Assembly (NCBI GenBank): GCA_000165345.1
Contig: CM000432.1
Span: 576,001-640,000 of the forward strand
DNA: 64,000 bases
Direction: 5' to 3'
Shown: positions 13,017-57,183 of the stretch, one piece after another
Position numbering within the stretch: the first letter of the stretch is position 1
How the letters are laid out: each line of letters starts with the position of its first letter
Program-made: the position numbers and the translations under genes
The notes under the pieces: model-generated
Seen by the model: only the letters and a program-made list of their open reading frames with translations
Told to the model about the DNA's origin: nothing
The model's database searches: none

Positions 13017-14078
13017 TTATAATGAGTTATTTGAATCTGCATTTGATCGACTATTTGTAATTAGTTCCGAGATTTGGTGAATTAGGTGAATAAATACTTT
13101 CTGTAGACTATCATCGGTAATATCTTTCACTAATTTAATTAAATAATCCAATGCATTCCTTTGATATTCCAAATAATGTTCATTTATTTTTAATAAATTG
13201 TAACAATCTTTTACTAACGAACTATTTTTTCCATAGTTTTCAGAAATCTTAAGTTTCATTTCTTCATCAGCAATTTCAAACGATTTTTGTAGTGGCCATG
13301 TAAGTTTAAACCTGCAAATATCATCTGCATTGCTATCATTAAATAAGTAGTCAGAAACATCATTGTGCACTTGATAGAATTCGCCCAGTTTATAGAGGAT
13401 AGCTTCAATCAAGTTTAATTGCGCTGAAGAAACTTGAATTTCAGAAAGTGTTAAGCCAAAAAATACAGGCATATAAAACGTATAGCGAGAAGTCTTCATT
13501 TCTACCATTGAAAAGTATCTTTCGGATATTTTGTCAGCTTTAGATAAATCAAAATATGACAGATCTAAATGTTGGCCCAATACCGTAAAAAAAATAGATT
13601 CATTGTATATTTTCTGGATTTTCATAACAATATCATTTCCGAATACACTAGAAAGCTCAAAGATCAGTGAAAGTGATAGCATTTTCAAGAAAAAAATGTC
13701 ATTAATTGCATTCGATTGACCATGAACAATATACCAACAAGGCGCTCCTCTTCTAAATTTACCAGAATCCATAATATCGTCCGCAATTAATATCAATGCT
13801 TGTATTGCTTCAACCACCCACCCTAACAAATAAATGGAGTCTCTCTTTATATTTGAATATGCTGAACTTAAACTTGAGATTAACACTAAAATTTTGCCAC
13901 GAATATGCTTGCCTTTTTTTACGTTATAATCAATACAGTTTAAGTAATATTCGATTACTGGTTTTCTTATTTCATCATTTAATGGTAATTTTTTTAAAAC
14001 ATTATATACTATTACTTTAAATTTATCGTAATAATTAATAAAATCCGTATAATCATATTCTATTTGCAAATCATTCAT
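13017..14078 (-). CDS. FPPS-like trans-polyprenyl diphosphate synthase
   Basis: The first Asp-rich motif LILIADDIMDSGKFRRGAPCWY resembles the FPPS motif LVADDIMDSSLTRRGQICWY. The region around the second motif is conserved (KTSRYTFYMPV..., LGEFYQVHNDVSD vs MGEFFQIQDDYLD). There is no aromatic residue at -4/-5 of the first motif. Confidence 0.8.
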   Translation of the reverse strand: MNDLQIEYDYTDFINYYDKFKVIVYNVLKKLPLNDEIRKPVIEYYLNCIDYNVKKGKHIRGKILVLISSLSSAYSNIKRDSIYLLGWVVEAIQALILIADDIMDSGKFRRGAPCWYIVHGQSNAINDIFFLKMLSLSLIFELSSVFGNDIVMKIQKIYNESIFFTVLGQHLDLSYFDLSKADKISERYFSMVEMKTSRYTFYMPVFFGLTLSEIQVSSAQLNLIEAILYKLGEFYQVHNDVSDYLFNDSNADDICRFKLTWPLQKSFEIADEEMKLKISENYGKNSSLVKDCYNLLKINEHYLEYQRNALDYLIKLVKDITDDSLQKVFIHLIHQISELITNSRSNADSNNSL

Positions 14079-14325
14079 TTTATTGAAAATGAATTGAGGG
14101 GTTAAATAATTATCGTGCAGAGCAAAAAATATTGAGTCAATAAACGTTATTTTTAATAGATGAAAGAGAATCTAGATATTTTTTGTTTACCTTTTTTTGT
14201 GAGTAGGAATTATTATTAAATTAATCAACTTACTTTTTTACAAAACTCAGGATAATCAGCGCATGCAGCCAATATCAAATCAACCAATTGATCTTCGAAT
14301 ATTAATAAAAGTGAAACAAATAAAA

Positions 14326-14547
14326 CTAACCAAATAACTTACTTCTTTCTAAACATACTATCTGGCTTTCAATAGATGTAGCTTTTAAGGATCCACCTAA
14401 TTTATTGATAACTTCATTTTTTTCGAGACTATTTCTTTCATTGATTAACTTTTGCAAATTTTGCCTTCTGTGGCTGCTTAAAGAATAACTAATTCTCTTT
14501 TTTTCTTTTAGTTCGGCATTCCTAATTGGTGTTTGAAAGTTCGGCAT
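14326..14547 (-). CDS. small basic hypothetical protein (73 aa)
   Basis: ATG at 14545-14547. Lys/Arg/Ser-rich with no family recognised. An ORF of this length can arise by chance here. Confidence 0.2.
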   Translation of the reverse strand: MPNFQTPIRNAELKEKKRISYSLSSHRRQNLQKLINERNSLEKNEVINKLGGSLKATSIESQIVCLERSKLFG

Positions 14548-14596
14548 TTATAACTGAAAAATAAAAGCTAAAAAAAATAACTGAATAATAGAATCT

Positions 14597-14604
14597 TTTC
14601 GCGC
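14597..14604 (+). promoter_or_regulatory. E2F-consensus TTTCGCGC in intergenic DNA
   Basis: tctTTTCGCGCaaaa is an exact TTTSGCGC match within very AT-rich spacer, 270 nt upstream of the ATG at 14874. Confidence 0.25.
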
Positions 14605-14873
14605 AAAATAATCGATTAAAAAAATGTTAAATACAAATAAAACGCGTAGGAATTATGGAACTTGCTTGAATTAAATGTTTATGAAAAAAAAATTAAGTAA
14701 ATCCAAGCTTAAAACTAAAATTTTTAAAACTTTCAAAGTGAACAAGGTGTATTTGTAACATCAATTAAAGCATGTTTAAATAGCATGCAATATAAACATG
14801 CGACATGTAATTGCTAGTTAATTCCCCATCGTTAAAACATTTAGAACTATTCTTTGAATTTTTATGGTTATTT

Positions 14874-15538
14874 ATGGCACCTGAAACTCAATTCAATTTT
14901 AGAAAGCATAAAAGCGACCTAAGAAAATTATCTTTGGTCATTTTTATAACAATAGATGTGTTATATGCAGGAGTGCTCGCAGTTTCATTTGGGAAAGTTT
15001 GTGACACACCGTTGAAGGCATGGCTCGTTGGTGCAATACTATTGGTAAGAAATTTAAATAATAAGTAATTCTTCATTAATGATAAATTAGTCCTATCCTG
15101 CTTCTAAGCTTATGGCTATAATAGAATCCACATTTGGGCAAAAGTAAGTTGTCTTGAATACAAAGAAATATATTATATAAAAGAAGTTTTGCAATAATAG
15201 GTGAATCTATAATGTTTTTGGCAAGTTTTCTTTGGTTCACAATGGGAACTGTTTGGGTAAGTTGAAAATTCATTATAATTATTCGATTACTTGTTTAGGT
15301 AAATACTTCATTGGTTTGTCAAAGCACTGCGCCTGCACTTTGGTGGACGGTATGTTGAAAATTAACTAGAAAAAAACTAAAAATTTTGCATGTTCAGACG
15401 TTTGTTACAATTTCTTCAATTTGGTTTTTTACAGCAGGTTTGGCACTTTCTTTAATTGGAATAACAGTTTACCATATGATTGCTACGGGAGGCTCAAATC
15501 CAGAATTTAATAGTATCTCAGATAAGCCTACGATGTAA
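14874..15538 (+). CDS. small polytopic membrane protein; multi-exon gene with uncertain 5' structure
   Basis: Three 3' exons are clear. Exon 15201..15256 (GESIMFLASFLWFTMGTVW) is followed by GTAAGT. Exon 15299..15349 (VNTSLVCQSTAPALWWT) is followed by GTATGT. Exon 15398..15538 (TFVTISSIWFFTAGLALSLIGITVYHMIATGGSNPEFNSISDKPTM, then stop) follows the acceptor ttcag. The introns are 42 and 48 nt and every exon is in phase. An upstream ORF from the ATG at 14874 (MAPETQ...LSLVIFITIDVLYAGVLAVSFG...KAWLVGAILL) encodes another TM helix. It can be joined in frame only through a weak GTGCAA donor at 15031, so it may be a separate exon or gene. If it is separate, the ATG at 15211 would start a 78-aa protein. 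Confidence 0.4.
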
Positions 15539-15715
15539 AATATTCAATGAATTATTTCAAGTAAACATTTAGTATTGAATAAATGTTCTTTTAATGTTTT
15601 TTGAAATGTTGATGAATTTCATAGATTATTAAATACAATTAAATGACGTGAATTGTTTATTTAACGTTTTGAAAAAAAAAATTATAAATTTTCCCAAATC
15701 AACAAAGTAGATGAC

Positions 15716-20361: not shown

Positions 20362-20435
20362 GCTTCCGTGGCTTAGTCGGTTATAGCATTCGGCTGTTAA
20401 CCGAAGGGTCGACGGTTCGATTCCGTCCGGGAGCG
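20362..20435 (+). tRNA. tRNA-Asn (anticodon GTT)
   Basis: 74-nt cloverleaf with acceptor GCTTCCG/CGGGAGC, D-arm GCTTAGTCGGTTATAGC, anticodon loop CTGTTAA and T-arm GACGGTTCGATTCCGTC. Overall form matches eukaryotic tRNA-Asn-GTT. Followed directly by a T9 run. Confidence 0.9.
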
Positions 20436-31229: not shown

Positions 31230-32295
31230 CTATATAAAATACTGTATAATTGCTGTCTCTTCAGAAAATTCCGTATTACAATCTTTAGAACAAGTATATA
31301 TTATTATTGTTGACCATTCAGAACTGCATTTACAGAAAATATCTTTTTCTCCAAACAAGTTTTCCCACTCGTATATTATTGAAGAAATTATTTGAAATTC
31401 AAAGACTTTGTTTGAACCACATTCTTTACAAGTTGGAATATTTATTTTTTTCGGACTTTCTGAATAAAGAGGAGTACCACCAAAGCAATACCTAATTATT
31501 TGTCTTGGAAATTTTGAGATTTCTGAAGAAAAATTGTGCAAATATCTATCCTTATCAAATATATAGCAACTTTCTTCAGCATTAGATGGGTCTAAATATT
31601 CGTTATCGCTTTTATCAGATGAAACATCAGAGTCTGAACATTTTTCGATTTCAATTGGATCGTTATCGGCATTAGAAATGTAAGAATCCAATAAAAATTT
31701 AATTTTGATATCACCATTATCAACATCACTTTCTGATATATATTTGATCAAATAACTTTTTTGGTCCAATTTCCTACTAAATAAATTTTCAATTATTTTT
31801 GAATCGTTTTGAATATTTTGATTTGTAACTGATGTATTAATATCTATACCTGCTGATTGAAGCCAATCATCAGTTAGAATGCTACTTTCCTTATTTGGAA
31901 AGCTTTCAGTTGCGTTGTGTAAATTTGATTCAACAGAGGACCTAAAGGTAGTCCAATTCATGCTACAATAATTATTTTCACAATAAAACAAATATATAAC
32001 TCGTCTTTTAACAATTGAATATGGAGTATTTCTGAAAAATAAATTCAATATAGTTTCCATAGTTATAAATAATTTATTTAACTTACAACTGTAATATAAA
32101 TTTCAAAGGTAGGCTGCATTTTTCACAATTGACTTTAATTTCTCTAGTTAAAAAATCCTAAGTATATTAAATTGTTTGATTTATTCCAAAAAAATAACTT
32201 ACCGGGTAACCACCTAACTTGCTATCTACTTCCAGATATTCCTTCAGATTACCTTCATTTTTTATTTCTCTACCAAGGTATCCGAGCAATGCCAT
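31230..32295 (-). CDS. PDCD2/Tsr4-family protein; three exons (32295..32203, 32157..32087, 32031..31230 on minus)
   Basis: Exon 1 MALLGYLGREIKNEGNLKEYLEVDSKLGGYP, followed by GTAAGT, matches the PDCD2 N-terminus (LGF...SKVGGRPAWL). Exon 2 DFLTREIKVNCEKCSLPLKFILQL matches ACELCGRPLSFLLQV. Exon 3 (NTPYSIVKRRVIYLFYCENNYC...) ends with the PDCD2_C signature CKECGSNKVFEFQIISSII...EWSTIIIYTCSKDC. Introns are 45 and 54 nt, GT-AG, phases consistent, giving a 966-nt CDS. Confidence 0.7.
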
Positions 32296-49974: not shown

Positions 49975-51930
49975 ATGCCTTTTTTTTATATTAATAATGC
50001 ATTGAACTATCTCTCAATATGTAACATTTCTATTGGATTCATTCTTGTTCTGAAAAAACTAGCCCAATTAAGTTCTGAATATATAGAAAATAATGTCCCA
50101 TCTAATTTCTCAATATTTTACTCAACGGAAACGGGAAATTCAAGAAAAATATCAGAATTGTTCAAGAAACTACTAGATGAAATAAGCATTGAAGCCAATG
50201 TCCGTGAGATAAACTCGATACTAGAAGAAAACATGTATTTAAATAGTAACAATTCGGTGTTTGTTTTCGTAGTTTCTACATGCGGAAATGGGAGCTTTCC
50301 AGCATCGTCGAGGAAATTCATTCGTTATCTTTCGAAAATGATAAAATCTGGGAATGAAATATTTTTAGGAATCAAATACACTATTATTGGCCTTGGAAGC
50401 TCCTTATATGAATACTCTTTTAATTCTGCGGCTTTAAAGCTTGATAAATTGATCTCTTCACTTAAAGGTGAGAAATATTGCGAAATTGCACTCTTGGACG
50501 AAGTGAATGGTAATGAGATTGATTTTAAAACATGGTGGAACAATACATTTTTAAATAGGCTTGGAATTTCAGATTCAAAAGAACATTTGAACAAACATTT
50601 CAGTATAGCTGTAACGAGAAAAAAAGATGAATTTGTTTGTAAATTGAGAAGTATTAATGAAATCTCACTTTATAATCACTCTCTCTCTGGGAATTGCCAC
50701 GTTTCTGAAATTTACTTCAAGCTAATAGAATTTTGCCCCATTAACAGAGAATTATTATGTGAAACAAAAACTATCGATGGCATTGAAAGACAAATTTTTA
50801 ACTTAAAACTTGAACTTCCTGATAAAGTACAATATAAGACATTTGATATTATCGATATACTTCCACCAAACCTCGATGAAAACATTACTTTTTTTTCAAG
50901 CAAAGTATTGGGAATAAACAGTATCGAAGATTTAAAAAATATTACTGTTGAATTTGTGCCAATAAATAACATGACGAGAAATATCAGTGTCCCATTTCCT
51001 AATAATCGCTCTTTAATGCATATACTAAAGTACTATTTTGATCTTATGACTTTACCTCCTCACTCAGTAATGCTACAATTTGTTCCTTATTTAAATTCAA
51101 TAGAAGGAGAGCTTATTTCCAACGAAAGTTTTTTTAATGAAAATAAGGATTCTTATGAGTTTTCTTTTCATTTATTTATAAATCGTTTTATGAAAAGTCT
51201 TATTCCAATACCAATAGAAAAGTTTGTTAAATTTACTGGAATCAGACAATATCCAAGGAGCTATTCAATTTCATCCTCCTCACTCGCTTCACCATCAATG
51301 ATTGATTTAACAATTAGTACGTGTATTAAGGGCCAAATCTCTGCCCCATTAAATGAAATAATTAGCGAAGGGGCGAATAAAAAGAATTCCAAAAAAATTA
51401 TCAAAGGATTGTGTTCAAGTTTTCTTTTTGAATTTGATTTGAATTTGCCTGTACTAGGAATGATAAGGTCATCTTCTCTCAATATAGACAATGTGACATC
51501 ATCTGCACTAATGTTTTCACATGGGAGTGGTATTGCGCCTATTAGAGCACTATTACATGAACGAAAATATTTAATTAATGAAAAAAAAATTATAAAGCCA
51601 GCGTATTTGTTTTACGGATGCAGAACAGAAAATGAAATAATTTATAAAGACGAACTTAAGGACTTTAAAAGAATAGGTGCATTAACTGAAGTTTTTTTTG
51701 CTTTGTCTAAGACACAAAAAAAATACGTTAAAGACATAATTCCTTTTTATAAACACATCATTTTAAAGGTAGTTGATCAAAATGATTCAATAATATATAT
51801 CTGTGGGAAAAAGGAATTTGTTTCAGGGATCAAAAATGAAGTTGCATCGATCATTTCTAATAATCGTTCGAGAAATATTATTAAAAAAATGTTTGTTGAA
51901 GGTAGAATTTTTATAGAATCATGGAATTGA
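49975..51930 (+). CDS. NADPH-dependent diflavin oxidoreductase (CPR/Tah18-like) with N-terminal membrane anchor
   Basis: Flavodoxin-like FMN site FSIFYSTETGNSRKISE. FAD-binding RQYPRSYSISSS (R.YS..SS motif of the CPR/NOS/sulfite-reductase family). C-terminal NADPH domain (LMFSHGSGIAPIRALL, YICG). Hydrophobic N-terminal segment SICNISIGFILVL. Confidence 0.75.
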   Translation: MPFFYINNALNYLSICNISIGFILVLKKLAQLSSEYIENNVPSNFSIFYSTETGNSRKISELFKKLLDEISIEANVREINSILEENMYLNSNNSVFVFVVSTCGNGSFPASSRKFIRYLSKMIKSGNEIFLGIKYTIIGLGSSLYEYSFNSAALKLDKLISSLKGEKYCEIALLDEVNGNEIDFKTWWNNTFLNRLGISDSKEHLNKHFSIAVTRKKDEFVCKLRSINEISLYNHSLSGNCHVSEIYFKLIEFCPINRELLCETKTIDGIERQIFNLKLELPDKVQYKTFDIIDILPPNLDENITFFSSKVLGINSIEDLKNITVEFVPINNMTRNISVPFPNNRSLMHILKYYFDLMTLPPHSVMLQFVPYLNSIEGELISNESFFNENKDSYEFSFHLFINRFMKSLIPIPIEKFVKFTGIRQYPRSYSISSSSLASPSMIDLTISTCIKGQISAPLNEIISEGANKKNSKKIIKGLCSSFLFEFDLNLPVLGMIRSSSLNIDNVTSSALMFSHGSGIAPIRALLHERKYLINEKKIIKPAYLFYGCRTENEIIYKDELKDFKRIGALTEVFFALSKTQKKYVKDIIPFYKHIILKVVDQNDSIIYICGKKEFVSGIKNEVASIISNNRSRNIIKKMFVEGRIFIESWN

Positions 51931-51986
51931 ATTGTATTGAATCCCGCGTCTCTTTGTCTTTGTTCATTTTCTTATTTTTTTTCGAT

Positions 51987-52420
51987 ATGGTGGTAGGTTG
52001 AAACTTGTTCAAATTGATGTTAACATTTGACGATATTTTTAGTTACCTTTATCTGTAATCAGGGCAGCTCATCACAGGCCAATAGTAAGTTGACTCCTAT
52101 CTATGCGAAAAACTTAATTGATTTAGTTGGTAGAGCTAAAAAATGGAGAAACATATTCTGGAATACTAACAGGCGTAGATGGATTTATGAACTTAGCACT
52201 TAATAACGTTATTTGTAATTCAAGAGATGGGAATGGTTTTTTTAAGATGGTTGAGTGTTATATTAGAGGTAATAACATCAAGTTAATCAGAATTAGTGAT
52301 GAGAATATAAATACTGCAAAAGATGATATGACTCAAAGAGAAACTGCTAGGCTCGGAAATAGAGGAAGGCCCAGAAATGAAACAAGAGCTTCGAGAGTTA
52401 GATCTTCTAAATGGGTGTAA
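51987..52420 (+). CDS. LSM4: U6 snRNA-associated Sm-like protein LSm4; three exons (51987..51989, 52043..52084, 52127..52420)
   Basis: Track ORF 52127..52420 starts at a TTG and matches the LSm4 Sm fold ([60 protein letters not shown] vs human [60 protein letters not shown]). An upstream exon LPLSVIRAAHHRPI matches human LPLSLLKTAQNHPM and is flanked by a ...tttttag acceptor and a GTAAGT donor. The initiator ATG at 51987 is followed at once by intron GTGGTAGG...TTTTTAG. Introns are 53 and 42 nt. Confidence 0.75.
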
Positions 52421-52596: not shown

Positions 52597-55500
52597 ATGA
52601 TAGGAAGCGATGATTCTTTTGAACCAAATATACAAAATCAAACTGTTCAATCTTCTATGGCTACAAAGTCTTCAAATACGTTTCATTCCATCTTCAATAA
52701 GGACGAAAAATTGCTTGAAATGAGTTCTCAGTCCTCTTTAAAGGATGTGAACTCATACTCACCAAATATTGCTACATATAATTGTATAGGAAATAATTCA
52801 TCCCCTTCTTCAAGAATTGTATCGCCAATTTCAAGTGCAAGTTTTTTTGTTGATATGACGCCCAATGGAAGGCATTTACTGCACGCAGAAGTAGCTGATG
52901 AAGAACCAAATCCAGAAACTTGCTCGCCTAATCCTCAAAAATTCCTTCAAAATAGGTTAAATTTATTAGCTAGTCGCAACTTGCTAAACCATTATGTTAA
53001 TTCAAACGAAAACAATTACTTCGGAAAACAATTAAGCTCTGATGTTATTTCGAGTATACCTGATTTGCAGTATAATGAAACGGCTGTTCAAGATATGGTT
53101 ATTAATAAGCTAAGCATGTCAACTCAAATGTTACCAGATACAATTGAAGAGGCAAGAAAAAGGGATCCAGAATTTGTCTCAAAAGCATTGGAACAAACTT
53201 TAGAATATAGTGAAGCGCAGAAACCAATACACTATTGGAGTCAAATTGAATTAGATATGCTAATTAACGAGCTATCTGCAAATATCATTGATGGGATTGA
53301 TGAAGGTAAGGCAATAGAGCTCATGGAAAAAAAATATGGCCCAAATAAACTTCAGAAAGAAAAACATGAACCAATTTGGAGAATTTTCCTTAGCCAATTC
53401 ACATCGCTTGTTGTTTCATTGCTATTAGTCGCAGGGATAGTTTCACTAGCGTTTCAAGAATGGGTTGAAGGAATTGGGATTTTATTTATCGTTTTGATTA
53501 ACGCAAGCCTTGCAACATATATGGAAAATAATGCATCTAATGCACTTGCGAAACTAGCGGACTTATCCTCTCCAAAATGCACAGTAATAAGGTCTGGAAT
53601 AATAAATATAATACCTGCATATAATTTAATCCCAGGCGATATTGTGCTGTTGAGAACTGGCGATAGCGTCCCCGCAGATGTTAGGTTAATTGAAGCTACT
53701 GAAATTAAGTGTAATGAAGCTTTGCTTACTGGTGAATCGGAAGATGTATCAAAGCACTTGGTCAGCCCTGATCCAAATAATCCTTTCCCAACAAATATTT
53801 GCTTTGCATCAACTGCAATTACAAATGGAACAGGCAAAGCAATTGTTGTACTTACCGGGATGAACACACAAATAGGGAGGATTGCGCAACAACTGAAACT
53901 TGCAAGCGGTGGTTCAAATAGTGGCACTCCGTTACAAATCGGATTAAATAGGCTTGGGGGATTTATAGGATTTATGTCATTAATCGTATTGGTAATAATA
54001 GTAATTGTGGCTTTGCTCACAAACTATAAAGATCCATCTCATCCGAACAGTAACCCTGTATTCGGTATCATTCTTGTTGCTGTTGGGTTTGCTGTGTCAT
54101 CTATACCAGAAGGTTTACCTATGGTAGTAACAATATGTCTTTCAATTGGGTGCTCTGAAATGTGTAGAAGGAAAGCTAATATTAGAAAGCTACCAGCAGT
54201 TGAGACTTTAGGATGCTGCTCAGTTATTTGTAGTGATAAAACTGGCACGTTAACAGAAGGAAAAATGACAGCAGTTAAATTAGCTACTTTCTCTAGAAAT
54301 AATACCAAGACATTAAATATATCTCCCACAGGTAATGAACAATCACCTTCTTTTGTGGAATACCAAGAAAGTAACTCTTGTGTTTTCTCATTTTACCCTA
54401 CAAGAGGTAGCGACCCAAATGGAGGAATTTTTTTATCGTCTTCTCTCACACAAAATATTAAAGAAGAAATAATGAACCTAATACATTTTAATAAAAACAA
54501 AACAATAGAGATGACAGAAAATCATATTCTTGAAAGTAATTTTGAAATGCCTCCAGATGACAAAATCCCATATAAATTCATTAATTACAATTCAATTTGT
54601 AAAGACTTTGGGGACCCTTTAAATAGCCATCTTCCCCAAACTAAATATGTTAGGAGTGCGCTTTTAGCAGGATACTTAAACAGCTACGGAACTGCCTTAG
54701 TGTATGATAATGAAAGCAATTCATGGAAAACTAGAGGAAATATGAGCGAAGGAGCGATAGTTGTAGCTGCAGCCAAAGCATCTTATGGAATAAAAAATAA
54801 AATTTTTGACTCAAGGAAACAAGATATTGAATCAAAACAAAGTAGTACAAAGAAAAGTGGTCATTTAATTCGTTCTAAATTAAATGATCAGAACTTTAAA
54901 ACCATTAATAATGGGAACAATCCTGCTACTGAAGTTGCTACTTCTGGTAGCTCTCCTACTCAATGCGCACTCGATTCGAACTCCACTGATAGCAATAAAC
55001 TAAAAAATTATATAATTGATGGAGTAAACACAGAAAATAAGACAAATTTGGTTATTGAAGATGAAATTGAGTATTTAAGGGTCCCTTCTGTAGAAGTACC
55101 TTTTACTTCTTCCAGAAAAATGATGATGACTGTACATTCTCTGTCCACACCAAACAAATTTGGAGATATATTTTTTTCAAATACTGATTCAAAATCAAAT
55201 AAACAAACTAATCTTCAAAATAAAGTTTCAAATTCTAATTCTCAGAGGTATTCAAAGACAGTAGATAACCTTGATTCTGGCGTTTACACTCATGTTGCAA
55301 TATTAAAAGGTGCCCCTGACAGAATTGTTAAACATATAGGTTTTATGCTTAATACAGATTGGAAAAATGAAGAACCAATGGTTCATATAGATTATTCGGA
55401 AAAAATAAATCCAAAAGAAATCTTTGAAATAGAAAACACGAATAAAGTTTTGAGTGGGGAAGCCTTGAGAGTTCTCGGAATTGCAATTCTCCCATTAACT

Positions 55501-57183
55501 AGTGAAGACTTTTTTGATTTAGTCACAGAAGAATGCAGCGATAAAAGGTTACAATATGTTTTAGACAAAAATGAACTTACTCTTTTGGGGCTGATAGGAT
55601 TTCTTGATCCTCCCAGGCCTGGAGTTGAGAAGGCAATCACCAAGTGCTGTGAAGCAGGTGTAAGAGTAATTATGATTACAGGAGATCAACAACCAACAGC
55701 ATGTGCAATTGCAAGGTCAATTGGATTACTTGCAGATGAGTATGAATATAAAAATAGTTACGAAGGCAGTGCAGACTTACATAATGCAACATCTGGGTCT
55801 ATTATTTGTAACCAATTGCATGAGAACGGCGATGCTTCTAGACCGCATTTATCAAATGAGTTATTTGATAAGATTGTTTCATCTGTAAGCGTATTTTGTA
55901 GAGCTCAACCAGAAGATAAAATAGCGATTGTTCGTTCGCTTCAAAGGCAGGGGGAGGTTGTTGCAATGACAGGGGATGGCGTAAATGATGCGCCTGCATT
56001 AAAAGCTGCTGATATTGGAGTTGCAATGGGGATAAGTGGTACTGAGGTTGCAAAGGGTGCTTCTGAAATGGTTTTGCTTGATGATAACTTTGTGACTATA
56101 GTAAATGCAATTGAGGAGGGGAGGAAAATATATTCAAATGTACAGAAATTTGTCGCATTTTTACTTGGAACGAATATTGGAGAAATAATTTATTTATCAA
56201 TTGCAATTGCAGCACAACTTCCTATTCCAATAGCTGCACTTCAAATACTGTTTTTAAACTTAATGTCAGATGGTGGGCCTGCAGTAGCTCTCAGCGTTGA
56301 TCCCCCAGATCCAAATATGATGAAAGTTCCTCCCAGACCAAAAAAAAGCCCAATTATGACAAGAGACTGGTGGATATTTGGAAATATTCCTCATGCCATC
56401 TTCGAGGCTATTTGCGTCCTTTCTGTACTGATAATTTCAATGTATACATCTTTAGGAGTTTTTCAAAGGAATGCGATTGAATCACTTTGTCTCCATGATT
56501 CAAATAATAGATACTTTTGCCAAACTAATGAATGGAGATTAAATTTAATTGACTTAGAAAAAACCGGATGGGTAACAAATATTGATTTTTATAACCCTTT
56601 AACAAACAGCATGGAACAAATCTTGGGTGTTACTAAAGGAAAGTTAAATTCAACACTTTCACCTTCTGAAATTCCATATGTTAAAGGTTTATACGAAAAA
56701 GCGGAGAGATTGGGAATTTCTTGCGTAGCTGGGAAACATGGTTGGTGTATTCCTCAACAAAAGATCACAAATGACGAGTATATTGATTTGGTTGCTTTCG
56801 GTACAATAAGAGGCAGGACTGCCTCTTTTATTGCTGCTGTATTCTGTGAAATGCTACGAGCGTACACTGTTAGAACTTGGGATTGGTTTACAAAACCTCT
56901 ATTTAACAATCCATGGCTTCATTTTGCTTGTAGCTTAAGCGCTAGTAGCACACTGATTGTAACATTCACGCCTGGCTTACAACAAATTTTTGGAACTCAT
57001 ACAATATATTGGTGGCTTTACATTCTAGCTATTGGTGCGGGATTTCTGAATATGGCATTTGATGAATTAGTGCCTAAGCCTCTATACCGAAGAATTGTCG
57101 AAAGAAGAAGAATAAGGGCAAAGTTACTAGCTGAGAGAGATGTAAATTGGATTACTAGATCTGAACAATTTGAAAATACTTAG
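52597..57183 (+). CDS. P-type cation-transporting ATPase, type II Ca2+-ATPase-like (1528 aa)
   Basis: KYGPNKL N-terminal motif, TGES, TM4 IPEGLPMVVTICLSIG, phosphorylation site CSDKTGTLTEGKMT, hinge MTGDGVNDAPALKAADIGVAMG. About 190-aa N-terminal extension and a about 300-aa Ser/Asn-rich insertion in the N/P-domain region. Confidence 0.85.
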   Translation: MIGSDDSFEPNIQNQTVQSSMATKSSNTFHSIFNKDEKLLEMSSQSSLKDVNSYSPNIATYNCIGNNSSPSSRIVSPISSASFFVDMTPNGRHLLHAEVADEEPNPETCSPNPQKFLQNRLNLLASRNLLNHYVNSNENNYFGKQLSSDVISSIPDLQYNETAVQDMVINKLSMSTQMLPDTIEEARKRDPEFVSKALEQTLEYSEAQKPIHYWSQIELDMLINELSANIIDGIDEGKAIELMEKKYGPNKLQKEKHEPIWRIFLSQFTSLVVSLLLVAGIVSLAFQEWVEGIGILFIVLINASLATYMENNASNALAKLADLSSPKCTVIRSGIINIIPAYNLIPGDIVLLRTGDSVPADVRLIEATEIKCNEALLTGESEDVSKHLVSPDPNNPFPTNICFASTAITNGTGKAIVVLTGMNTQIGRIAQQLKLASGGSNSGTPLQIGLNRLGGFIGFMSLIVLVIIVIVALLTNYKDPSHPNSNPVFGIILVAVGFAVSSIPEGLPMVVTICLSIGCSEMCRRKANIRKLPAVETLGCCSVICSDKTGTLTEGKMTAVKLATFSRNNTKTLNISPTGNEQSPSFVEYQESNSCVFSFYPTRGSDPNGGIFLSSSLTQNIKEEIMNLIHFNKNKTIEMTENHILESNFEMPPDDKIPYKFINYNSICKDFGDPLNSHLPQTKYVRSALLAGYLNSYGTALVYDNESNSWKTRGNMSEGAIVVAAAKASYGIKNKIFDSRKQDIESKQSSTKKSGHLIRSKLNDQNFKTINNGNNPATEVATSGSSPTQCALDSNSTDSNKLKNYIIDGVNTENKTNLVIEDEIEYLRVPSVEVPFTSSRKMMMTVHSLSTPNKFGDIFFSNTDSKSNKQTNLQNKVSNSNSQRYSKTVDNLDSGVYTHVAILKGAPDRIVKHIGFMLNTDWKNEEPMVHIDYSEKINPKEIFEIENTNKVLSGEALRVLGIAILPLTSEDFFDLVTEECSDKRLQYVLDKNELTLLGLIGFLDPPRPGVEKAITKCCEAGVRVIMITGDQQPTACAIARSIGLLADEYEYKNSYEGSADLHNATSGSIICNQLHENGDASRPHLSNELFDKIVSSVSVFCRAQPEDKIAIVRSLQRQGEVVAMTGDGVNDAPALKAADIGVAMGISGTEVAKGASEMVLLDDNFVTIVNAIEEGRKIYSNVQKFVAFLLGTNIGEIIYLSIAIAAQLPIPIAALQILFLNLMSDGGPAVALSVDPPDPNMMKVPPRPKKSPIMTRDWWIFGNIPHAIFEAICVLSVLIISMYTSLGVFQRNAIESLCLHDSNNRYFCQTNEWRLNLIDLEKTGWVTNIDFYNPLTNSMEQILGVTKGKLNSTLSPSEIPYVKGLYEKAERLGISCVAGKHGWCIPQQKITNDEYIDLVAFGTIRGRTASFIAAVFCEMLRAYTVRTWDWFTKPLFNNPWLHFACSLSASSTLIVTFTPGLQQIFGTHTIYWWLYILAIGAGFLNMAFDELVPKPLYRRIVERRRIRAKLLAERDVNWITRSEQFENT

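What the first reader, a model, noticed from the sequence alone, without database searches (positions are those of the whole stretch)
51987..52420. LSm4 gene whose first exon is the initiator ATG alone
The conserved N-terminal peptide LPLSVIRAAHHRPI matches LPLSLLKTAQNHPM in human LSm4. It is recovered only if an ATG at 51987-51989 is spliced by a 53-nt GT...AG intron to a 42-nt exon, then by a 42-nt intron to the main ORF. Introns placed directly after the start codon are characteristic of ribosomal and snRNP genes in intron-poor eukaryotes. Together with the other genes re-modelled here, it shows this genome has minimal 42-54 nt introns with strong GTAAGT donors.
Basis: partly seen in the sequence, partly recalled or inferred. 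Interest (0 to 1): 0.5.

Follow-up and report, generated by a model that had tools for sequence, protein, structure and literature searches.

The report
Cryptosporidium LSm4 gene, two-codon first exon
This is the ordinary, already annotated LSm4 splicing-factor gene of Cryptosporidium parvum; its first coding exon is two codons (ATG GTG), not the ATG alone, and Toxoplasma and a free-living algal relative share the same layout.

Summary
The window is Cryptosporidium parvum chromosome 4, and 51987-52420 is its LSm4 gene (locus *_4g2710).

The first splice donor is placed 3 nt too early. The sequence reads ATG GTG GTAGGT. Splicing after ATGGTG (a 50-nt intron, 51993-52042) is also in frame and gives MVLPLSVIR...

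Four results favour this model:
- The 113-aa product is exactly the protein annotated in C. parvum IOWA-ATCC. That paper states its annotated introns are fully RNA-seq supported.
- All eight Cryptosporidium loci that include the gene's 5' end read ATGGTG|GTA[A/G]GTT, and four have a perfect GTAAGTT.
- Every apicomplexan, chromerid and dinoflagellate LSm4 whose N-terminus was read starts MV-LP or xV-LP, apart from one truncated model. Many of these come from transcriptomes.
- The annotated Toxoplasma and Vitrella LSm4 genes have the same 6-nt and 42-nt first two coding exons.

Cryptosporidium kept the two 5' introns and has none at the three downstream positions. Short introns with GTAAGT donors are already published for this genome. 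The finding is real but ordinary and known, and its headline claim is off by one codon.

The parts
51943..51951 (+). Conserved GC-rich motif CCCGCGTCT in the 56-nt spacer between the stop codon of the upstream reductase gene (51928-51930) and the LSm4 ATG. It is a candidate promoter or 5'-UTR element; this role is inferred, not shown.
   Evidence: The same motif sits upstream of the ATG in C. ubiquitum, C. canis and an unnamed Cryptosporidium assembly. CCCGCGTC occurs exactly once in the 64-kb window.
51987..51992 (+). Coding part of exon 1: ATG GTG (Met-Val). The transcript's first exon also contains an unmapped 5' UTR.
   Evidence: ATGGTG is invariant in 8 Cryptosporidium loci. It is the same 6-nt coding exon in the annotated Toxoplasma gondii and Vitrella brassicaformis genes. 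The annotated 113-aa product starts MV.
51993..52042 (+). Intron 1: 50 nt, phase 0, GTAGGTT...TTTTTAG. If retained it gives a stop after 4 codons (ATG GTG GTA GGT TGA).
   Evidence: The donor GTA[A/G]GTT is conserved in all 8 loci, and 4 have a perfect GTAAGTT. The intron core is only 46-66% identical between non-sister species, and its length varies from 47 to 66 nt. An intron sits at the same position in Toxoplasma and Vitrella.
52043..52084 (+). Exon 2: a 42-nt micro-exon encoding LPLSVIRAAHHRPI, the N-terminal segment of the Sm fold.
   Evidence: It aligns to residues 2-15 of human LSm4 and S. pombe Lsm4. Variation is concentrated at third codon positions (13/14, against 3/14 at second positions). 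It extends the Pfam LSM match from profile position 11 to position 5. Toxoplasma and Vitrella have a 42-nt exon at the same place.
52085..52126 (+). Intron 2: 42 nt, phase 0, GTAAGTT...GATTTAG.
   Evidence: The donor is GTAAGT in 9 of 9 Cryptosporidium loci, and intron length is 41-67 nt. The intron position is shared with Toxoplasma and Vitrella.
52127..52420 (+). Exon 3: 294 nt including the TAA stop. It encodes [10 protein letters not shown]...SSKWV, the rest of the Sm domain and a short basic tail.
   Evidence: ORF; Pfam LSM domain E = 4.6e-17; best solved-structure matches are all LSm4. This exon covers what is exons 3-6 in Toxoplasma and Vitrella.

Best explanation
Positions 51987-52420 (+) hold the Cryptosporidium parvum gene for LSm4. 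LSm4 is a subunit of the heptameric Lsm rings that bind U6 snRNA (Lsm2-8) and act in mRNA decay (Lsm1-7).

The pre-mRNA carries two short U2-type GT-AG introns at its extreme 5' end. The layout is:
- Exon 1: 5' UTR plus ATG GTG.
- Intron 1: 50 nt, 51993-52042, donor GTAGGT.
- Exon 2: 42 nt, encoding LPLSVIRAAHHRPI.
- Intron 2: 42 nt, 52085-52126, donor GTAAGT.
- Exon 3: 294 nt.

The product is the 113-aa protein MVLPLSVIRAAHHRPILVELK... Both introns must be removed to make protein. Retaining intron 1 gives a stop after four codons, and exon 3 has no ATG of its own in C. parvum.

The arrangement is inherited. The annotated Toxoplasma and chromerid Vitrella genes have the same 6-nt and 42-nt coding exons, followed by three further introns. 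Cryptosporidium has no introns at those three positions. Loss in Cryptosporidium is the likely explanation and fits the usual 5'-biased intron retention of intron-poor genomes.

Shown here: sequence, frames, conservation, intron positions, and identity with annotated products. Inferred: actual junction usage in C. parvum mRNA. That rests on the published statement that introns in the IOWA-ATCC annotation are RNA-seq supported, not on reads I inspected. Protein function is also inferred, by orthology.
For: - Identity with annotation. The spliced 113-aa product equals P0001, which carries accessions QOY42168.1 (CPATCC_001781, C. parvum IOWA-ATCC), OLQ17035.1 (C. hominis, named LSm4) and others. 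The annotated gene span is the same 434 nt. [quoted passage not shown]
- Donor conservation. All 8 loci with the 5' end read ATGGTG|GTA[A/G]GTT, and 4 have a perfect GTAAGTT. The only variable site is a purine transition at +4. The intron 2 donor is GTAAGT in 9 of 9 loci. 84% of Cryptosporidium introns begin GTAAGT (PMC2483917).
- N-terminus in relatives. Toxoplasma, Vitrella, Gregarina, Selenidium, Filipodium, Platyproteum and about 19 dinoflagellate sequences, many transcriptome-derived, begin MV-LP. Two further dinoflagellate sequences begin MPV- and MAPV-, and one Symbiodinium model lacks this N-terminus. Animals and Phytophthora begin M-LP.
- Gene structure in relatives. Exact exon mapping of the annotated T. 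gondii and Vitrella LSm4 proteins gives exon 1 = ATGGTG, exon 2 = 42 nt, then exons of 99, 112/115, 69/60 and 38/44 nt.
- Orthology. The best PDB matches are human LSm4 (6e-27) and S. pombe Lsm4 (5e-26). Other Sm/LSm families score no better than 1.7e-7. Identity to T. gondii LSm4 is 59% from residue 1.
Against: - I inspected no C. parvum reads or cDNA. Junction usage rests on a general statement in a paper, not on a per-gene record.
- ATG|GTGGTA... is a formally valid GT-AG intron in the same frame in every species, because ATGGTGGTA is invariant. DNA conservation alone therefore does not exclude minor use of the upstream GT.
- Other assemblies annotate different products for the same locus: 99 aa with exon 2 skipped, 97 aa, 77 aa, and a 743-aa fusion. 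Annotation agreement is not unanimous.
Confidence: 0.9

Rival explanations
1. One reading: the coding part of exon 1 is the ATG alone. It is spliced from donor GTGGTA at 51990 across a 53-nt intron to 52043, giving the 112-aa protein MLPLSVIR...
For: - It is in frame and uses GT...AG.
- It reproduces the M-LPLS N-terminus seen in animals, fungi and oomycetes (103 of 124 collected homologues).
- Phase-0 introns directly after the start codon are a known, over-represented class in short conserved proteins, with ribosomal proteins over-represented (PMC1626468).
Against: - The donor GTGGTA differs from the genus consensus GTAAGT at +3 to +6 and loses the +5 G. The site 3 nt downstream matches at 5 or 6 of 6 positions in every species.
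- Under this model the invariant GTA[A/G]GTT would sit at intron positions +4 to +10, with no reason to be conserved while the rest of the intron diverges to about 50% identity.
- The 112-aa sequence is absent from the 15-billion-protein collection. The MV form is annotated in C. parvum, C. hominis, C. meleagridis, C. ubiquitum, C. ryanae and C. serpentis.
- All alveolate relatives checked carry Val before LP, apart from one truncated Symbiodinium model.
Confidence: 0.04
2. Both donors are used. ATG|GTG|GTAGGT is a GYNGYN tandem donor, and alternative splicing gives two isoforms that differ by Val2. The reader's junction would then be a minor form.
For: - GTGGTA fits the GYNGYN pattern, at which alternative 3-nt donor choice is documented in several eukaryotes (PMC1779574).
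- The GTG is invariant in 8 Cryptosporidium species, Toxoplasma and Vitrella, even though it would be a four-fold degenerate Val codon.
Against: - The invariance of GTG has simpler explanations: G at +4 of the start context, and G at -1 of the donor.
- No 112-aa isoform is recorded anywhere.
- Only three alternatively spliced genes were proposed for the whole C. parvum genome in the evidence-based re-annotation, and their gene IDs differ from this gene's.
- The upstream site is a very weak match to a very strict consensus.
Confidence: 0.06
3. Exon 2 is not used. The real product is the 99-aa form (ATGGTG spliced directly to 52127), as annotated in some C. hominis, C. parvum-like and C. felis assemblies. 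A shorter form starting inside exon 3 (the 77-aa original Iowa II model) belongs to the same class of alternative.
For: - These models exist in public annotations (P0003, P0008, P0122).
- Skipping a 42-nt exon keeps the frame.
Against: - Exon 2 shows a protein-coding substitution pattern and an invariant LPLSVI across the genus.
- It aligns to the LSm4 N-terminus in solved structures.
- It is a separate 42-nt exon in the annotated Toxoplasma and Vitrella genes.
- It improves the LSM-domain match (61.9 against 58.3 bits, profile start 5 against 11). The 77-aa form falls below Pfam's cut-off (21.4 against 23.4 bits).
- C. parvum exon 3 begins TTG, so it offers no start at its 5' end.
Confidence: 0.02

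Closest known systems
Annotated C. parvum LSm4 gene model (CPATCC_001781 / QOY42168.1; CPHLJ_4g2710; C. hominis OLQ17035.1 'U6 snRNA-associated Sm-like protein LSm4')
   Same: It has the same 434-nt span and the same start and stop codons. Exon 2, intron 2 and exon 3 are also the same. Its product is identical to my model B.
LSm4 genes of Toxoplasma gondii (L012) and Vitrella brassicaformis (L013)
   Same: Exon 1 coding part is ATGGTG, followed by a GTAAG donor. Exon 2 is 42 nt and encodes LP...P(M/I). Both introns are phase 0 and lie after codons 2 and 16. The proteins are 59% identical from residue 1.
   Different: These genes have three further introns (six exons in all). Their introns are longer: 57-95 nt in Vitrella and 403-768 nt in Toxoplasma. 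They also have longer RG-rich tails. In Cryptosporidium the equivalent of exons 3-6 is one exon.
Start-codon introns (phase-0 introns between codons 1 and 2; Nielsen & Wernersson 2006, PMC1626468)
   Same: A phase-0 intron lies at the extreme 5' end of the coding sequence of a short, conserved ribonucleoprotein component.
   Different: Here the intron lies between codons 2 and 3, so the gene is not a strict member of that class.
GYNGYN tandem splice donors (Hiller et al. 2006, PMC1779574)
   Same: The sequence GTGGTA offers two GT dinucleotides 3 nt apart in the same frame.
   Different: There is no evidence that the upstream GT is used. The downstream site is the only good match to the consensus.
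Human LSm4 and S. pombe Lsm4 in solved Lsm rings and tri-snRNP (3jcr_4, 6ppn_D)
   Same: The alignment is full-length across the Sm domain, starting at LPLS.
   Different: Cryptosporidium has an extra Val after Met, shared with its alveolate relatives. Its C-terminal tail is much shorter and only weakly RG-rich.

Membership tests
LSm4 (U6 snRNA-associated Sm-like protein 4) | Sm/LSM domain present and complete | tested here: met
   Pfam PF01423 scores 61.9 bits against a cut-off of 23.4, over residues 10-71 and profile positions 5-65 of 66.
LSm4 (U6 snRNA-associated Sm-like protein 4) | Closer to LSm4 than to any other Sm/LSm paralogue | tested here: met
   The top 9 distinct PDB sequences are all LSm4, with E from 6e-27 to 1.5e-10. 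The best non-LSm4 match is 1.7e-7. Named database hits are LSm4.
LSm4 (U6 snRNA-associated Sm-like protein 4) | Assembly into Lsm2-8 / Lsm1-7 rings and binding of the U6 snRNA 3' end | not testable with these tools
   Inferred from orthology only.
LSm4 (U6 snRNA-associated Sm-like protein 4) | C-terminal RG/RGG-rich tail (typical, not universal) | tested here: inconclusive
   The tail RLGNRGRPRNETRASRVRSSKWV is basic but has only two RG dipeptides. Toxoplasma and Vitrella have clear RG repeats.
ATG-only first coding exon (start-codon intron) | Phase-0 intron exactly between codon 1 (ATG) and codon 2 | tested here: not met
   The conserved consensus donor follows ATGGTG in all 8 Cryptosporidium loci, and also in the annotated Toxoplasma and Vitrella genes. 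The annotated product begins MV.
U2-type GT-AG spliceosomal intron of Cryptosporidium | GTAAGT-like donor, AG acceptor, short AT-rich body | tested here: met
   Intron 1 is GTAGGT...TAG, 50 nt, 28% GC. Intron 2 is GTAAGT...TAG, 42 nt. The published consensus is 84% GTAAGT, median length 61 nt, 78% AT.
U2-type GT-AG spliceosomal intron of Cryptosporidium | Junctions observed in mRNA | not tested
   No read data were available. This rests on the statement in PMC8744675 that annotated introns are RNA-seq supported.
GYNGYN alternative tandem donor | Both GY sites used in transcripts | not testable with these tools
   The pattern is present (GTGGTA), but no isoform record exists.

The most novel reading that the evidence does not exclude
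The invariant ATGGTGGTAAG string is kept from chromerids to Cryptosporidium (Vitrella and half of the Cryptosporidium species; C. parvum and three others carry G at donor position +4). It could be more than a start codon plus a donor. It might be a functional tandem (GYNGYN) donor giving LSm4 isoforms with or without Val2. Alternatively it could be a splicing-dependent control point, through which a core spliceosome and decay factor tunes its own expression, since retaining intron 1 aborts translation after four codons. Nothing here tests this, and nothing strictly excludes it.
Probability: 0.05. Interest if true: 0.35.

Novelty: already known. Interest (0 to 1): 0.12.

Why it matters
The finding matters little beyond annotation quality. 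The correct three-exon model is already in the current C. parvum reference annotation, and the short GTAAGT introns of this genome were described years ago.

Two points are useful. First, a one-codon error in placing a splice donor can go unnoticed when GT dinucleotides are in tandem. Comparing relatives resolves it. Second, public assemblies still carry at least five different products for this one small gene: 77, 97, 99, 113 and a 743-aa fusion. The 6-nt and 42-nt coding exons shared with Toxoplasma and Vitrella give a simple rule for correcting them. They also give a clean example of an intron-poor parasite keeping only the 5'-most ancestral introns.

Tried and rejected
- ATG-only model: rejected on the donor sequence, its conservation, the N-termini of relatives and the annotation record.
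- Contiguous upstream start for exon 2: impossible, because a TAG lies in frame at 52040-52042. The ATG at 52027-52029 is followed by TTAACA, with no GT donor.
- Start within exon 3: C. parvum has TTG there. The next ATG gives the 77-aa form, which fails Pfam's LSM cut-off.
- Transcript-derived copies of the C. parvum protein in assembled public runs: none. The 113-aa sequence occurs only on genomic contigs, so I obtained no direct mRNA evidence.
- Non-coding RNA or other features on either strand at the locus: Rfam found only a tRNA elsewhere in the window, and the minus-strand ORFs here are 30-37 aa.
- Upstream motif CCCGCGTC: it is not a recurring element in the window. There is one exact copy, and the count of near-matches is at chance level.
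- Intron survey by annotated gene spans: this worked for 33.8-59.2 kb, where LSm4 is the only gene with introns. The second look-up returned an assembly with prokaryote-style gene calls and was uninformative.
- GTAAGT as a raw hexamer is not enriched in the window (13 and 18 copies per strand, against 21.7 expected). Only its context identifies introns.

Full report
**What the window is.** The window is 30.5% G+C. Over the 3,434 nt centred on the finding it differs at 1 position from a C. parvum chromosome-4 assembly and at 66 positions from the second assembly that carries this protein (GCA_001593465.1; species name not returned). The finding lies between two genes on the same strand. Upstream is a 651-aa NADPH-cytochrome P450 reductase-like gene (49975-51930). 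Downstream is a 1,528-aa P-type cation ATPase gene (52597-57183). This gene order is kept in the eight orthologous loci that include both flanks.

**Checking the observation.**
- ATG at 51987-51989.
- GT...AG over 51990-52042 (53 nt).
- A 42-nt stretch at 52043-52084 encoding LPLSVIRAAHHRPI.
- GTAAGT...TAG over 52085-52126 (42 nt).
- An open frame from 52127 to the TAA at 52418-52420.

An in-frame TAG at 52040-52042 means the peptide cannot be reached without splicing. The main ORF starts with TTG, so it has no initiator of its own.

The peptide is genuinely coding:
- HMMER aligns the spliced protein to human LSm4 from LPLS (human residue 2) onward at E = 6e-27, and to S. pombe Lsm4 at 5e-26. 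Other Sm/LSm families score no better than 1.7e-7.
- Across eight distinct Cryptosporidium sequences, 13 of 14 third codon positions in the exon vary, against 3 of 14 second positions. LPLSVI is invariant through synonymous changes such as TTA/CTA, CCT/CCC/CCA/CCG and TCT/TCG/TCC.
- The exon is more conserved than the cores of the flanking introns. Against C. canis, for example, it is 79% identical, compared with 53-55% for the introns.

The sequence at the start is ATG GTG GTAGGTTGA. Two GT dinucleotides 3 nt apart both give an in-frame junction with 52043:
- Model B: ATGGTG|GTAGGT, a 50-nt intron, product MVLPLS..., 113 aa.

Four independent lines favour model B.

1. *Annotation record.* The 113-aa product is identical to a protein deposited for C. 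parvum IOWA-ATCC (QOY42168.1, CPATCC_001781), for other C. parvum assemblies, and for C. hominis (OLQ17035.1, named LSm4). The annotated gene span is the same 434 nt. MV-forms are also annotated in C. meleagridis, C. ubiquitum, C. ryanae and C. serpentis. The 112-aa sequence does not occur in the 15-billion-protein collection. The paper describing the IOWA-ATCC annotation states that its introns are 100% supported by RNA-seq (PMC8744675).

2. *Donor conservation.* I retrieved nine orthologous loci, and eight include the 5' end. All eight read ATGGTG followed by GTA[A/G]GTT. C. ubiquitum, C. ryanae, C. felis and one unnamed species have a perfect GTAAGTT. After that point the intron diverges freely, and its length ranges from 47 to 66 nt. 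The donor of intron 2 is GTAAGT in 9 of 9 loci. Published analysis gives GTAAGT for 84% of Cryptosporidium introns (PMC2483917). Model A's donor GTGGTA differs from this consensus at positions +3 to +6 and lacks the +5 G. Under model A the conserved heptamer would lie at +4 to +10, with no reason to be conserved. From the canonical U1 5' end (my own knowledge, not tested here), model B gives seven contiguous pairs from -1 to +6, one of them a G-pseudouridine wobble. Model A gives five, two of them wobbles.

Among the apicomplexan, chromerid and dinoflagellate sequences I read, nearly all begin MV-LP(L/M). These include Toxoplasma, Vitrella, Gregarina, Selenidium, Filipodium, Platyproteum and about 19 dinoflagellates, many of them transcriptome assemblies. 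Two further dinoflagellate sequences begin MPV- and MAPV-. One Symbiodinium model is truncated and lacks this N-terminus.

4. *Gene structure of relatives.* I mapped the annotated T. gondii and Vitrella proteins exactly onto their loci. In both, exon 1 is ATGGTG followed by GTAAG, and exon 2 is 42 nt. Four more exons follow, of 99, 112/115, 69/60 and 38/44 nt.

**What it is and how it works.** This is a three-exon LSm4 gene:
- Exon 1: 5' UTR plus 51987-51992.
- Intron 1: 51993-52042.
- Exon 2: 52043-52084.
- Intron 2: 52085-52126.
- Exon 3: 52127-52420.

Both introns are phase 0 and must be removed for translation, because retaining intron 1 gives a stop after four codons. Exon 2 supplies the N-terminal segment of the Sm fold. 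Adding it moves the Pfam LSM match from profile position 11 to position 5. The original 77-aa Iowa II model falls below Pfam's threshold.

The two introns sit at the same positions as introns 1 and 2 of the Toxoplasma and Vitrella genes. Cryptosporidium has no introns at the three downstream positions. Loss is the likely explanation. It is the familiar pattern of 5'-biased intron retention in an intron-poor genome. This last point is an inference from established models of intron loss, not something tested here.

Short introns with strong GTAAGT donors are real but already published. Reported figures are a median of 61 nt and a mean of 82 nt for 213 introns, and a mean of 84-100 nt with about 11% of genes carrying introns (PMC4637869). 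Within the window:
- In 33.8-59.2 kb, LSm4 is the only gene whose annotated span exceeds its coding length.
- A PDCD2-like gene elsewhere can be modelled with two 5' introns of 45 and 55 nt, both with GTAAGTT donors.
- Several further GTAAGTT sites lie outside long ORFs.

Start-codon introns are a documented class (PMC1626468). This gene is not a strict member, because its intron follows codon 2.

**What remains open.** I saw no reads. Some assemblies annotate an exon-2-skipped 99-aa form. Conservation argues that exon 2 is used, but occasional skipping is untested. The transcription start is unknown, and the spacer to the upstream stop codon is only 56 nt.

**Verdict.** The gene and its two tiny introns are real. 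The 'ATG-only exon' claim is off by one codon. The correct model is already in public annotation. Interest is low.

Noticed in passing
window 51987-52420 and orthologous loci L001-L010: Public assemblies carry at least five different products for this one gene. They are 77 aa (original Iowa II, EAZ51257.1), 97 aa (starting at exon 3), 99 aa (exon 2 skipped; C. hominis CHM_4g2710, CPCDC_4g2710, and the equivalent 97-aa MVLVELK model in C. felis), 113 aa (correct), and a 743-aa fusion with the upstream reductase in Cryptosporidium sp. chipmunk genotype I (P0121).
   Followed up: yes
window 51943-51951: The GC-rich motif CCCGCGTCT lies in the 56-nt spacer upstream of the LSm4 ATG. It is conserved in C. 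ubiquitum, C. canis and an unnamed Cryptosporidium, and is unique in the 64-kb window. It may be a promoter element. The LSm4 promoter must otherwise overlap the 3' end of the reductase gene.
   Followed up: partly
window 31230-32295 (- strand): The PDCD2-like gene appears to have two 5' introns: 32202-32158 (45 nt) and 32086-32032 (55 nt), both with GTAAGTT donors. Together they add an N-terminal 'SKLGGYP...C..C...FILQ' region to the 276-aa ORF, giving a 321-aa model. Pfam confirms only the PDCD2_C domain.
   Followed up: partly
window 14078-15711: This 1.6-kb gap between long ORFs holds four GTAAGTT sites outside ORFs. Those at 15144 and 15257 (+) look like a small multi-exon gene with hydrophobic segments and candidate introns of 57 and 42 nt. 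Those at 14342 and 14233 (-) may be 5' exons of the polyprenyl synthase gene (13017-14078), whose frame stays open upstream of its ATG.
   Followed up: partly
window 49556 (+) and 63324 (+): Two further GTAAGT sites lie outside long ORFs. One (GTAAGTT) is in the 758-nt divergent spacer between the Sec7 gene and the reductase gene, preceded by a short ORF MNQSSLVE. The other (GTAAGTC) is near the window's 3' end. No gene is annotated at the first site in the assembly I inspected.
   Followed up: no
window 20362-20435 (+): A tRNA-Asn (GTT) gene is the only Rfam or ARAGORN hit in the window.
   Followed up: yes
window 52340-52417: The LSm4 C-terminal tail is short and only weakly RG-rich, with two RG dipeptides. 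Toxoplasma, Vitrella and animal LSm4 proteins have long RG/RGG repeats.
   Followed up: no
L012 1001-1011, L013 1001-1011, and all Cryptosporidium loci: The string ATGGTGGTA(A/G)G is unchanged from Vitrella through Toxoplasma to Cryptosporidium. This includes the four-fold degenerate third base of the Val codon. Val5 in exon 2, by contrast, uses GTA, GTT and GTG.
   Followed up: partly
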